From a virus (taxonomy: Duplodnaviria; Heunggongvirae; Uroviricota; Caudoviricetes), in IMG/VR virus record IMGVR_UViG_2681813004_000012, positions 1 through 7,978 of that record: DNA of 7,978 bases; one strand, written 5' to 3'. The position numbers are program-made. Position 1 is the first letter of the stretch, and each line of letters opens with the position of its first letter. Below are positions 3,001 through 6,000 of the stretch, in pieces.

Positions 3001-6000
3001 AAACGAAACGGGCGCTCTATGAACTCAGAGATTGTGCAGATACTGGAAGATGCCTTGAATGCAGAAAATACTCTTGGGGAAATAGCAGACAAAATCAACA
3101 GCGTCTCGGTTCCGCTAAATGTTGATGCGCTAGTTCAACTTCAAGCCCAGGTTATCGCCATGCAAAAAGAAATACAGGAAAAGTTCAGAGAGCAGAACGA
3201 AAAGTTGAGAGAACTACTAAATAAAAAACCCACCTGACGGTGGGCATAATCCATTACTGCGAAAGTTTGTTAATGGAAAGGAAGCCGCCAAAGTTGCCGA
3301 CGTTATTGCGAAACTTACAGCCACTCAGGCATTTGCTGCATTTATCCTTCGTGATATCGGACGTTGGCTGGTCATATTCATCCGCGACAGCCGGACCGTG
3401 ATAACCGCACTCATCGCCGCGATAGGTCCAGGTGCAGGTGTTGGCCAGCATGATACGTCCCGGAAAAACAGCGCCATCTGTTTCCGTCGGCGTGGACAGT
3501 ACAAAGGAGGCACTCACCGCGCTCAGTTCGCTGCACTGCTCGATGCGCCAGCGGCTGATCACCTCCTGCTCCGGATCGGCGTCACTGTTTCCGTTAACGA
3601 AGTTCACCGCATCCAGAAAACGGGCGTAAACCTTACGCCGGACCACCGTTCCGCCGACCAGACTCTGCATATCTTCCACCATACCGGTGACCATGCCGTG
3701 CAGGTTAGAAACCGTCAGTGTCGGACGGGCAGCACTGCCCTTGCCGTTCAGTTCAAATCCCGTCCCCTGAATGGGATACGCCTGATACTGTCGCCCCTGC
3801 CAGGTGACCGGCTCACCTTTTTCGTTCTGCTCATTACAGAAAAAATAACGTTCTCCACCGACCTCTGTCAGGTCGATTTCCCAGAGCACCACGCTGGCAG
3901 ACTGCTCCGCACGGGTGCATTCATTCAGTGTTTCCTGCCGGATATCCTGCATCAGTTCACCACCTGTTTAAACTCTGCGCTGAACTCAACACGCAACATA
4001 CTGACCTGCGACGACCATTTTGCGCAGGTCACCTTTATCTGCCTGTAACCATAAGGCGGCGTCCACAGAAAGGCCTTCCAGCCCCCGTGCTCAGCCAGAA
4101 ACGACTCCAGCGCCGTGGCCTCCTCACGGGAGACAGACAGCGTCACGCTGTACGTTTTCAGGTCAGCGTTCAGCCCGGCAGGCGCACGCTGGGAATAGCC
4201 ATCACCAAAGCGCACCTCCCTGACGGAAGGGGCCGATGTCACATCCATACCGGGTTTCACTTTCCAGCGGAAGGTTTTCATCGTCCACCTCCGGAGAACA
4301 GGCCACCATCACGCATCTGTGTCTGAATTTCATCACGGGCACCCTTGCGGGCCATGTCATACACCGCCTTCAGAGCAGCCGGACCTATCTGCCCGTTCGT
4401 GCCGTCGTTGTTAATCACCACATGGTTATTCTGCTCAAACGTCCCGGACGCCTGCGACCGGCTGTCTGCCATGCTGCCCGGTGTACCGACATAACCGCCG
4501 GTGGCATAGCCGCGCATCAGCCGGTAAAGATTCCCCACGCCAATCCGGCTGGTTGCCTCCTTCGTGAAGACAAACTCACCACGGTGAACAATCCCCGCTG
4601 GCTCATATTTGCCGCCGGTTCCCGTAAATCCTCCGGTTGCAAAATGGAATTTCGCCGCAGCGGCCTGAATGGCTGTACCGCCTGACGCGGATGCGCCGCC
4701 ACCAACAGCCCCGCCAATGGCGCTGCCGATACTCCCGACAATCCCCACCATTGCCTGCTTAAGCAGAATTTCTGTCATCATGGACAGCACGGAACGGGTG
4801 AAGCTGCGCCAGTTCTGCTCACTGCCGGTCAGCATCGCCGCCATATTCTGTGCAATACCGTCAAAGGTCTGCGTGGCAGCACTTTTAACCTGCGAAAAAC
4901 TGTCCGTCGCACTTTCCGCCCACTCCCCCCAGCCGGACTTCAGACCGGCCCGGTGACCCGGGCCAGCGCCTGCGGATTATCACCGTACACGTCCCGAAGA
5001 CGCTGCGCTTCAGACTCCCGCTGCGCCTGACGGTCAGTGAGACCGCGGGCTTTTGCGCTGATGGCGGCCTGCTTCGCGCTCTGCTGCTCTTCAAACCGCA
5101 CCGCCTGCTGTGCCAGCTCATTCAGGCGTTTCTGGTGTTCAACCTTGTCGCCCAGGTCAGCCAGCTGGCGTTTGTACTCCAGCGTCTCTTTCTCATGGGC
5201 CAGCAGGGATTTTTCCTGCCAGGATAACTGCCGTTTCGTGGCAGCCTCTTTCAGGACCGCATACTGACTTTCCGCCTTCCATAAATCACGGCGCTGCCGA
5301 CTGATTTTCTCATTCGCACCGCTGTGTTTTTCCAGCGTCCTGAGCTCAGCTTCAAGGGCAAGCAGAGCCTCTCTTGCCTGCTCCTCTTCCCTCTCCCCGG
5401 CAGAGCGCGTTTTCGGTGATGTATGCTTTTTACCTGTCAGCTCTTCAGCCAGACGGCTGACGGCTTCCTGCTGCCCAGGACCTTTGCTGACGCCTGTTGC
5501 ACGCGAGCGGTTGATGTACCCCATTTCCCCCTGGCGTATACGCGCATCCCGTTCCGCAATGGATTTTCTCAGCGCCAGTTCATCGCGTTTTGTTTTCTCA
5601 ATAAATACGCGGTTCTCTTCTGCCAGTTCACCAAACAACGCACCAACGCCGGGCACATTCTTTGTCGTTTCCCAGGCTGACTGAATAAATTCAGCCAGCG
5701 CCAGATCCCCCTGCACAAGCAGCAGCTTCACTTGTTCAACGGTTCCGGCCACCACGTCAGTGATCAGACTGAGTGCCCCCAGTGTATGATCACCTATCCA
5801 TGCCCATGCGTCAGAAGTCCAGGTTTTAACATCGTCCCAGATTTTTTCCACCGGCGTGGCCGCTTTATCAAGTTGCTCCAGACGTGCATTCATGACATCC
5901 GCAAACAGGGACATCGCCTCCGTCACCGCAGCCTGTTTACCTTTCGTGCGCTCAAGCTCATCAATATGGCGTAACTGGGAAACGCTCAGGAAGTTATACT

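What the first reader, a model, noticed from the sequence alone, without database searches (positions are those of the whole stretch)
4943..4976. Tape measure gene H is frameshifted at a GC-rich 18-bp palindrome
H is split into a 632-aa ORF and a 188-aa ORF in different frames. Hand translation shows the second frame already encodes H-like sequence upstream of its first Met, so this is one gene with an apparent single-nt loss (total span is 3n+2). The permissible window for the frame change (4943..4976) contains a perfect inverted repeat, GGCCCGG-TGAC-CCGGGCC (4947..4964), a hairpin-prone indel hotspot. The result is either a defective prophage with a truncated tape measure protein or a sequencing/assembly error at a GC palindrome; the sequence alone cannot distinguish the two.
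Basis: partly seen in the sequence, partly recalled or inferred. Interest (0 to 1): 0.5.

Follow-up and report, generated by a model that had tools for sequence, protein, structure and literature searches.

The report
Tape measure gene broken by 52-bp deletion
The tail-length "tape measure" gene H of a lambda-like prophage in a draft E. coli assembly is broken by a 52-base deletion, not a single lost base, which probably leaves the prophage unable to build tails; this is an ordinary case of prophage decay.

Summary
The window is a complete 7,978-bp contig (AOTC01000259.1, draft assembly GCA_001447405.1). It carries a lambdoid tail operon on the minus strand, in the order V'-G-T-H-M-L-[arc/ant moron]-K-I-J'.

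H is split into a 632-aa ORF (4940-6838) and a 188-aa ORF (4278-4844). The frame change must lie in 4943-4976. A perfect 7+4+7 palindrome sits at 4947-4964.

The lesion is not a 1-nt loss. Against the nearest intact allele (870 aa, only 4 substitutions away), the window lacks 52 bp, which is 17 conserved codons plus 1 nt. The junction is at 4948-4951 with 2-bp GG microhomology. It lies inside one palindrome arm, so the perfect palindrome is partly a product of the deletion. Before the deletion there was only a 5-bp stem.

Putting the 52 nt back restores an 870-aa ORF. All neighbouring genes are full length. The junction is absent from 5,426 complete E. coli genomes, 50,697 phage records and three contig collections.

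The frameshift separates the ruler part of H from the C-terminal piece, which is 100% identical to lambda gpH 666-853 and docks on gpI in the tail tip. The most likely reading is a real, recent, strain-specific inactivating deletion. A 52-bp deletion with only 2-bp homology is not a typical sequencing or assembly error, but I had no reads, so an artefact is not excluded. Interest is low.

The parts
4278..6838 (-). Gene H (lambda-type tail tape measure protein), disrupted. It is 2561 nt here against 2613 nt in the closest intact alleles.
   Evidence: Alignment to NZ_CP148401 (L001) shows 4 substitutions and one 52-nt gap. tblastn of intact 870-aa H matches residues 1-632 in one frame (6838-4943; residues 631-632 mismatch) and residues 648-870 at 100% identity in another frame (4949-4281).
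4940..6838 (-). N-terminal ORF of 632 aa. It holds H residues 1-630, then two out-of-frame residues (Pro-Val), then TGA at 4942-4940. It carries the TMP_2 domain and the ruler part of the protein.
4278..4976 (-). C-terminal reading frame, open from 4976. True H sequence (residues 648-870) starts at 4949. The first ATG is at 4844-4842 and gives the 188-aa ORF 4278-4844, which is identical to the last 188 residues of lambda gpH (666-853). That stretch includes the Gly-rich cleavage region and the C-terminal helix.
   Evidence: Pfam Tape_meas_lam_C profile positions 40-75 are matched in the 188-aa ORF.
4948..4951 (.). Deletion junction. 52 bp of the intact allele are missing here: GCACTGAAACAGACATGGGCGGATGAAGACATGCTGCGCGGTGACTGGCTGG, codons 631-647 (ALKQTWADEDMLRGDWL) plus 1 nt. 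Placement is ambiguous by 2 nt because of GG microhomology.
   Evidence: The BLAST pieces overlap by 2 nt. Re-inserting the 52 nt restores a 2613-nt ORF of 870 aa that differs from L001 H at only 2 residues.
4947..4964 (.). Perfect palindrome GGCCCGG-TGAC-CCGGGCC. Positions 4947-4948 (and possibly 4949-4950) of the arm at 4947-4953 come from the far side of the deletion. The intact allele has only the inner 5-bp stem plus a mismatch.
   Evidence: I23. DNA folding gives -9.1 kcal/mol in the intact allele against -10.9 kcal/mol for the window version.
4944..4944 (-). Synonymous Gly GGG>GGT difference from the closest allele, 4 nt from the junction. It is a standing polymorphism and not part of the lesion.
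   Evidence: position 1947 G>T. Intact H alleles that keep the full 52 nt and carry this T occur in four viral contigs, L021-L024.
4977..4982 (-). Two stop codons (TGA TAA) in the C-terminal frame. They set the upstream limit of the interval in which the frame change can lie.

Best explanation
Gene H of a lambdoid prophage has suffered a genuine, strain-specific 52-bp deletion.

Shown: the deletion removes 17 conserved codons plus one nucleotide, between H residues 630 and 648 of an 870-aa allele. Translation from the H start ends two codons past the junction, at TGA 4942-4940, and yields a 632-aa fragment. The last 223 residues sit in the -1 frame.

Inferred: the deletion probably arose by end-joining or replication slippage at a 2-bp GG microhomology, in a patch rich in CCGGG/CCCGG motifs, possibly helped by local secondary structure.

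Inferred from the lambda literature: the lost C-terminal part includes the Tape_meas_lam_C domain, the Gly-rich cleavage region and the C-terminal helix that docks on the gpI trimer in the tail tip. Lambda tail polymerisation starts at the tip around gpH, which is anchored there by its C-terminus. The truncated protein should therefore be unable to nucleate tails, leaving the prophage tail-defective unless another prophage supplies H in trans.

Every other gene on the contig is intact, so the event is evolutionarily recent.
For: - Nature of the lesion: the closest intact allele (L001) differs by 4 substitutions plus one 52-nt gap. Re-insertion restores an 870-aa ORF.
- Ancestral state: relatives annotate a single 2613-nt tape measure CDS. 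The 17 deleted residues are conserved in lambda gpH.
- Uniqueness: a 42-nt junction probe finds nothing in 5,426 complete E. coli genomes or 50,697 phage records (positive control). A 30-nt junction pattern is absent from the genome, metagenome and viral contig collections. The exact 632-aa product is encoded only on this contig.
- Neighbours: G, T, M, L, Arc, Ant, K and I all match relatives over their full length.
- Domains: intact H has TMP_2 plus Tape_meas_lam_C at 644-718; the 632-aa ORF lacks the latter.
- Role of the C-terminus: gpH residues 818-849 form a coiled coil held by the gpI trimer in the tip lumen (PMC10721106). gpH is cleaved in the Gly-rich region into gpH* and gpHC only after tail assembly (PMC12617516).
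- Against an error: a 52-nt gap with 2-nt homology does not fit homopolymer or 1-nt platform errors, or k-mer misjoins (inference).
Against: - No reads and no independent assembly of this strain were available. The deletion exists in exactly one short contig of a fragmented draft assembly, which is also what an artefact would look like.
- The contig ends fall in repeated prophage genes (V and J), so the genome probably carries several similar H alleles that could confuse an assembler.
- The deleted patch coincides with a locally divergent, mosaic stretch of H (L001 against L002).
- Loss of function is inferred from lambda biology and was not tested.
- The role of the hairpin in causing the deletion is not supported statistically. 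The 91-nt intact region folds with z of only -1.6 to -1.8.
Confidence: 0.75

Rival explanations
1. The 52-bp gap is an assembly or consensus artefact. The real genome would carry an intact 870-aa H, and the draft assembler or a library chimera dropped 52 nt in a GC-rich, hairpin-prone patch that diverges between alleles and is repeated across several prophages.
For: - The window is one entire 7,978-bp contig of a draft with at least 259 contigs, and its ends lie in conserved V and J sequence.
- The junction is seen nowhere else.
- All other genes are intact.
- The region is GC-rich with stable small hairpins.
- The deleted stretch lies in a patch where alleles differ strongly.
Against: - Only 2 nt of homology flank the gap, far below any assembler k-mer or overlap length.
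- Platform errors are substitutions or 1-few-nt homopolymer indels. The two G-tracts where relatives show such 1-nt losses (6545-6551 and 4925-4930) are full length here.
- The flanks are clean, with no mixed-allele consensus.
Confidence: 0.2
2. The split is tolerated or rescued. Either a -1 recoding event in 4943-4976 rejoins the frames, or the 632-aa ruler fragment and the separately translated 188-aa fragment work as a two-piece tape measure. The 188-aa fragment approximates the natural cleavage product gpHC.
For: - The C-terminal frame is -1 relative to the N-terminal frame, and a hairpin sits in the overlap.
- The 188-aa ORF equals lambda gpH 666-853, close to the natural gpHC fragment of about 690-853.
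Against: - There is no in-phase X XXY YYZ heptamer. The only XXXYYYZ in the interval, CCCGGGT at 4962-4956, is in the wrong phase and sits within the hairpin rather than upstream of it.
- Any rescued product would still lack 17 conserved residues.
- There is no evident Shine-Dalgarno sequence before ATG 4844 (sequence).
- Residues 648-682, the first half of Tape_meas_lam_C, would not be translated.
- Natural cleavage occurs only after assembly.
- The arrangement is unique to one contig, so it is not conserved.
Confidence: 0.03
3. A single-nucleotide loss at the palindrome.
For: The span is 3n+2, and adding one base would give 853 aa, the length of lambda gpH.
Against: - Alignment to seven related alleles shows a clean 52-nt gap and no 1-nt gap.
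- 17 conserved residues are missing from both frames.
Confidence: 0.01

Closest known systems
Bacteriophage lambda gpH (tail tape measure protein, 853 aa; J02459 10542-13103)
   Same: - Same operon position, G-T-H-M-L.
- Same Pfam domains, TMP_2 and Tape_meas_lam_C.
- About 61% identity overall, and 100% identity over the last 188 residues.
- The segment deleted in the window is present and conserved in lambda.
   Different: The window allele descends from an 870-aa variant whose length differences from lambda lie in the N-terminal and middle parts. It carries an out-of-frame 52-bp deletion, so it cannot make a full-length protein.
Intact H of E. coli prophages, e.g. WP_053879360.1 in NZ_CP148401 (strain Z1323CEC0019) and WP_000081813.1 in O104:H4 2011C-3493
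   Same: 99.8% nucleotide identity outside the gap for NZ_CP148401 (4 substitutions) and about 98% for O104:H4. The flanking T and M genes are the same.
   Different: These alleles retain the 52 nt and encode one 870-aa protein.
Other frameshifted H pseudogenes in E. coli prophages, e.g. KZY05_RS03635 in NZ_CP080139 (annotated 'frameshifted'), and loci L005, L010, L011
   Same: Same gene and near-identical allele, also split so that the same 188-aa C-terminal ORF is called as a separate gene.
   Different: Their lesions are 1-nt losses in G7 and G6 homopolymer tracts (H nt 288-294 and about 1956-1961). The window keeps both tracts intact and has a 52-bp deletion instead.
Palindrome- or short-repeat-associated spontaneous deletions in E. 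coli (classical lacI deletion spectra; from my own knowledge, not checked here)
   Same: One deletion endpoint abuts a short GC-rich hairpin. The endpoints share microhomology and lie between CCGGG direct repeats.
   Different: The microhomology is only 2 nt and both CCGGG copies are retained. There is no recurrence at this site, so a structure-driven mechanism is only conjecture.

Membership tests
Lambda-type tail tape measure protein gene (gpH family) | N-terminal TMP_2 (PF06791) domain | tested here: met
   The 632-aa ORF hits TMP_2 with E=3.4e-48 and 164.5 bits, against a cutoff of 30.2.
Lambda-type tail tape measure protein gene (gpH family) | C-terminal Tape_meas_lam_C (PF09718) domain in the same polypeptide | tested here: not met
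   Intact H has the domain at residues 644-718. In the window it lies in another frame, and only profile positions 40-75 fall in the 188-aa ORF. The DNA is homologous but the gene is a pseudogene.
Lambda-type tail tape measure protein gene (gpH family) | Synteny: downstream of the chaperone genes G and T, upstream of M and L | tested here: met
   Gene calls with Pfam hits and tblastn of the relatives' proteins.
Lambda-type tail tape measure protein gene (gpH family) | Single uninterrupted ORF of about 850-870 codons | tested here: not met
   The gene is split into 632-aa and 188-aa ORFs. The 2561-nt span is 3n+2.
Programmed -1 ribosomal frameshift site | In-phase slippery heptamer X XXY YYZ, followed 5-9 nt downstream by a stimulatory structure, and conserved among relatives | tested here: not met
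   The only XXXYYYZ in the interval (CCCGGGT, 4962-4956) is out of phase and lies inside the hairpin. Relatives have one continuous ORF. The junction is unique to this contig.
Sequencing or assembly artefact | Lesion absent from the raw reads or genomic DNA of the strain | not testable with these tools
   No reads are accessible. The only indirect argument is that 52 nt with 2-nt homology is atypical of errors.
Defective (cryptic) prophage | Failure to produce infectious tailed particles on induction | not testable with these tools
   Only 8 kb of the prophage is on this contig, and the loss of H function is inferred from the lambda literature.

The most novel reading that the evidence does not exclude
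The deletion is real and the prophage still makes tails with a two-piece tape measure: the 632-aa ruler fragment plus the separately expressed 188-aa fragment, which nearly coincides with lambda's natural post-assembly cleavage product gpHC. That would show that covalent continuity of gpH is dispensable for tail initiation and length measurement.
Probability: 0.02. Interest if true: 0.5.

Novelty: already known. Interest (0 to 1): 0.08.

Why it matters
It matters little beyond annotation. The locus should be labelled as an H pseudogene carrying a 52-bp out-of-frame deletion, not as two tape-measure genes or a 1-nt frameshift. If the deletion is real, this prophage is probably tail-defective, which bears on predictions of whether it can be induced or transferred. 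The case also carries a methodological caution: a span of 3n+2 and a nearby palindrome suggested a 1-nt slip, but comparison with close relatives showed a larger deletion that itself created the perfect palindrome.

Tried and rejected
1. Single-nucleotide loss. Rejected by alignment to L001, L002, L003, L005, L010 and L011.

2. The adjacent G>T at 4944 as part of a complex template-switch event (quasi-palindrome correction or palindromic insertion). Rejected as unnecessary. The change is synonymous, and intact alleles with the full 52 nt already carry the T (L021-L024).

3. The 17-aa gap as a natural length variant explaining 870 aa against lambda's 853 aa. Rejected. Lambda retains this segment, and the length differences lie elsewhere.

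4. Programmed -1 frameshifting. Rejected.

5. Looking for the same junction elsewhere, to prove the deletion real through an independent assembly. Nothing was found in E. coli complete genomes, phage records, or the GTDB-representative, metagenome and IMG/VR contig collections, nor by exact-protein look-up.
   - The 188-aa ORF is called as a separate gene on other contigs: the cluster look-up records 45, and the contig index lists it in 100 blocks of the collection, of which 24 contigs were read and 10 places shown.
   - None of the 10 loci fetched carries the junction. In those I aligned, H is broken at other positions or the assembly is riddled with frameshifts.

6. Literature search for the assembly (AOTC00000000, AOTC01, GCA_001447405), to learn the strain and sequencing platform. 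No papers found.

7. A large hairpin bracketing the deleted segment in the intact allele. The complement strand folds that way, but the z-score is only -1.8 (9 of 200 shuffles fold as well), so this is not convincing.

8. GGGAAAG at 7309-7315 as the G/T slippery site. It is out of phase. The real site is A AAA AAG at 7283-7277.

Full report
**What the window is.** An exact-protein look-up shows that the window is the whole of contig AOTC01000259.1 (7,978 bp) of the draft assembly GCA_001447405.1. I found no paper describing this assembly. Its closest DNA relatives are all E. coli prophages and Stx-converting phages.

The minus strand carries a lambdoid tail operon:

| Gene | Coordinates |
|---|---|
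| 3' part of V | 7695-7952 |
| G | 7259-7681 |
| T | 6819-7232 |
| H, in two pieces | 4940-6838 and 4278-4844 |
| M | 3952-4281 |
| L | 3254-3952 |
| Arc-like repressor (plus strand) | 2917-3237 |
| 53-aa ORF | 2653-2814 |
| Bro-N/P22_AR antirepressor | 1667-2581 |
| K | 875-1612 |
| I | 330-902 |
| start of J | below ~270 |

**Checking the observation.**
- The 632-aa and 188-aa ORFs exist.
- The N-terminal frame ends at TGA 4942-4940.
- The C-terminal frame is open from 4976, just after TGA TAA at 4982-4977. It reads H sequence (AGLKSGWGEWAESATDSFSQ...) well upstream of its first Met.
- The frame change must therefore lie in 4943-4976.
- The span 4278-6838 is 2561 nt, which is 3n+2.
- The palindrome GGCCCGG-TGAC-CCGGGCC is at 4947-4964.

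Such hairpin-type repeats are not enriched in the window: there are 6, against 3.1 +/- 2.1 in simulations. The chance of one falling in this particular 34-nt interval is about 0.015.

**What the lesion really is.** Megablast of the H region against 5,426 complete E. coli genomes gave top matches at 99.9% identity. Every one came in two pieces and spanned 2,753 bases for a 2,701-base query.

Direct alignment to the best match (NZ_CP148401, locus L001) shows 4 substitutions and a single 52-nt gap. That relative's H is annotated as one 2,613-nt, 870-aa tape measure CDS. The missing sequence is GCACTGAAACAGACATGGGCGGATGAAGACATGCTGCGCGGTGACTGGCTGG.

In the sense strand of H the window reads ...GGTCACCGGG|CCGGTCTGAAG.... 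The two aligned pieces overlap by 2 nt (GG), so the junction lies at window 4948-4951. The deletion removes codons 631-647 (ALKQTWADEDMLRGDWL) plus one nucleotide.

tblastn with intact H matches residues 1-632 in one frame (residues 631-632 mismatch) and residues 648-870 at 100% identity in the -1 frame. Re-inserting the 52 nt in silico gives a 2,613-nt ORF of 870 aa that differs from L001 H at only two residues. O104:H4 2011C-3493 (L002) and lambda itself keep this segment, and its residues are conserved (K-TW--E--LRG-W). The 'single-nucleotide loss' is therefore wrong. The agreement between (2561+1)/3 - 1 = 853 aa and lambda gpH's 853 aa is a coincidence.

**The palindrome.** The junction lies inside the arm at 4947-4953. 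Positions 4947-4948 come from the far side of the deletion. In the intact allele the corresponding sequence, TGGCCCGGGTCACCGGGGCA, forms only a 5-bp stem plus a mismatch. It folds at -9.1 kcal/mol, against -10.9 kcal/mol for the window version.

The perfect palindrome is thus partly a consequence of the deletion, which explains the otherwise unlikely co-location. A causal role for secondary structure remains possible. One endpoint abuts the small hairpin, and the complement strand of the intact allele can fold into a long interrupted hairpin bracketing the deleted segment. However, that fold is not significantly better than shuffled sequence (z = -1.8), and the junction does not recur anywhere.

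The G>T difference 4 nt from the junction (4944) is synonymous. It occurs in intact alleles that keep all 52 nt (L021-L024), so no complex event needs to be invoked.

**Is it shared?** It is not.
- A 42-nt probe centred on the junction needs a 28-nt exact word across it. It finds nothing in the complete E. coli genomes or the phage records. The probe finds itself with the low-complexity filter on.
- A 30-nt junction pattern is absent from the GTDB-representative genomes, the JGI metagenomes and IMG/VR.
- The exact 632-aa product is encoded only on this contig.

The 188-aa ORF is called as a separate gene on other contigs: 45 in the cluster record, and 100 blocks in the contig index, of which 10 places were shown. 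None of the 10 loci fetched carries the junction. In the near-identical alleles among them (L005, L010, L011), and in NZ_CP080139 (L003), H is broken differently, by 1-nt losses in a G7 tract and a G6 tract. Three of the others (L006, L007, L009) are assemblies with frameshifts across many tail genes. In the window both tracts are full length, at 6545-6551 and 4925-4930.

**Real or artefact?** I could not reach reads, so this is not settled.

Several points favour a real mutation. A 52-nt gap with only 2 nt of homology does not look like a platform error, which would be a substitution or a homopolymer indel. It also does not look like a k-mer or overlap misjoin. The flanks are clean, and the error-prone G-tracts are correct.

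Other points favour an artefact. The junction occurs in a single short contig of a fragmented draft. The contig ends lie in repeated prophage genes, which implies several similar H alleles in the genome. The deleted stretch lies in a patch where alleles diverge sharply (L001 against L002).

I put this at about 0.75-0.8 real and 0.2 artefact.

**Consequence (inferred).**
- Intact H has TMP_2 in the N-terminal part and Tape_meas_lam_C at residues 644-718. The 632-aa product lacks the latter.
- The 188-aa ORF is identical to lambda gpH 666-853.
- gpH is cleaved in the Gly-rich region into gpH* and a roughly 14-kDa gpHC only after tail assembly (PMC12617516).

A ruler fragment uncoupled from its tip-docking C-terminus should therefore not nucleate tails, so the prophage would be tail-defective unless it is complemented in trans.

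Rescue by recoding is unlikely. The required shift is -1, but the only XXXYYYZ in the interval is out of phase and sits inside the hairpin. Any rescued product would still lack 17 conserved residues. All neighbouring genes are full length compared with relatives, so if the deletion is real it is recent.

**Comparison and novelty.** This is a lambda-family H gene by domains, synteny and sequence, but as deposited it is a pseudogene. Broken tape-measure genes in E. coli prophages are common: RefSeq already annotates one as 'frameshifted' in the closest full-window relative. The particular allele is unrecorded elsewhere, but the phenomenon is ordinary. Interest is low.

The only mildly interesting unexcluded reading is a functional two-piece tape measure. 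The split falls near the natural gpH*/gpHC cleavage region, but I rate this at about 2%.

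Noticed in passing
window 6545-6551 (G7 on the H strand) and 4925-4930 (G6 on the H strand); relatives L003, L005, L010, L011: Several near-identical H alleles in other assemblies have 1-nt losses in exactly these two G homopolymer tracts. One of them is annotated 'frameshifted' in RefSeq NZ_CP080139. Each loss splits H so that the same 188-aa ORF is called separately. These could be homopolymer sequencing errors or genuine recurrent slippage. The window has both tracts intact.
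   Followed up: partly
window 1667-3237: A P22 immI-like arc/ant module is inserted between tail genes L and K. It consists of an Arc-family repressor (2917-3237, plus strand), a 53-aa ORF (2653-2814, minus strand) and a Bro-N/P22_AR_C antirepressor (1667-2581, minus strand). Only 8 of 5,426 complete E. coli genomes carry at least 80% of it. Stx-converting phages carry about 61% of it, annotated as Ant and Arc-like repressor.
   Followed up: partly
window 7277-7283 (minus strand): The G/T programmed -1 frameshift signal in this operon is A AAA AAG, in phase with G (...TCA AAA AAG CAT...) and leading into the T frame. It is not lambda's G GGA AAG. The GGGAAAG at 7309-7315 is out of phase and at chance frequency.
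   Followed up: partly
window 1-7978 (contig ends): The window is an entire draft contig whose ends fall inside V (Big_2 domain) and the start of J. This is typical of assembly breaks at sequence repeated among several lambdoid prophages in one genome, so other H copies that could complement or recombine probably exist in the strain.
   Followed up: no
L015-L019 (Acidobacteriota MAG contigs and one metagenome contig): The 22-mer GGCTGGCCGGTCTGAAGTCCGG, used to look for the T-bearing allele, also matches a repeated hairpin element (GGCCGG-TCTGAAGT-CCGGCC followed by ACTACA) in several Acidobacteriota MAG contigs. It is unrelated to gene H.
   Followed up: no
window 330-977: The longest ORF for tail gene I starts at ATG 977 (215 aa) and overlaps K by about 100 nt. 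Relatives annotate a 190-aa product (start near 902) that is only 77% identical, which makes I the most divergent tail gene on the contig.
   Followed up: no
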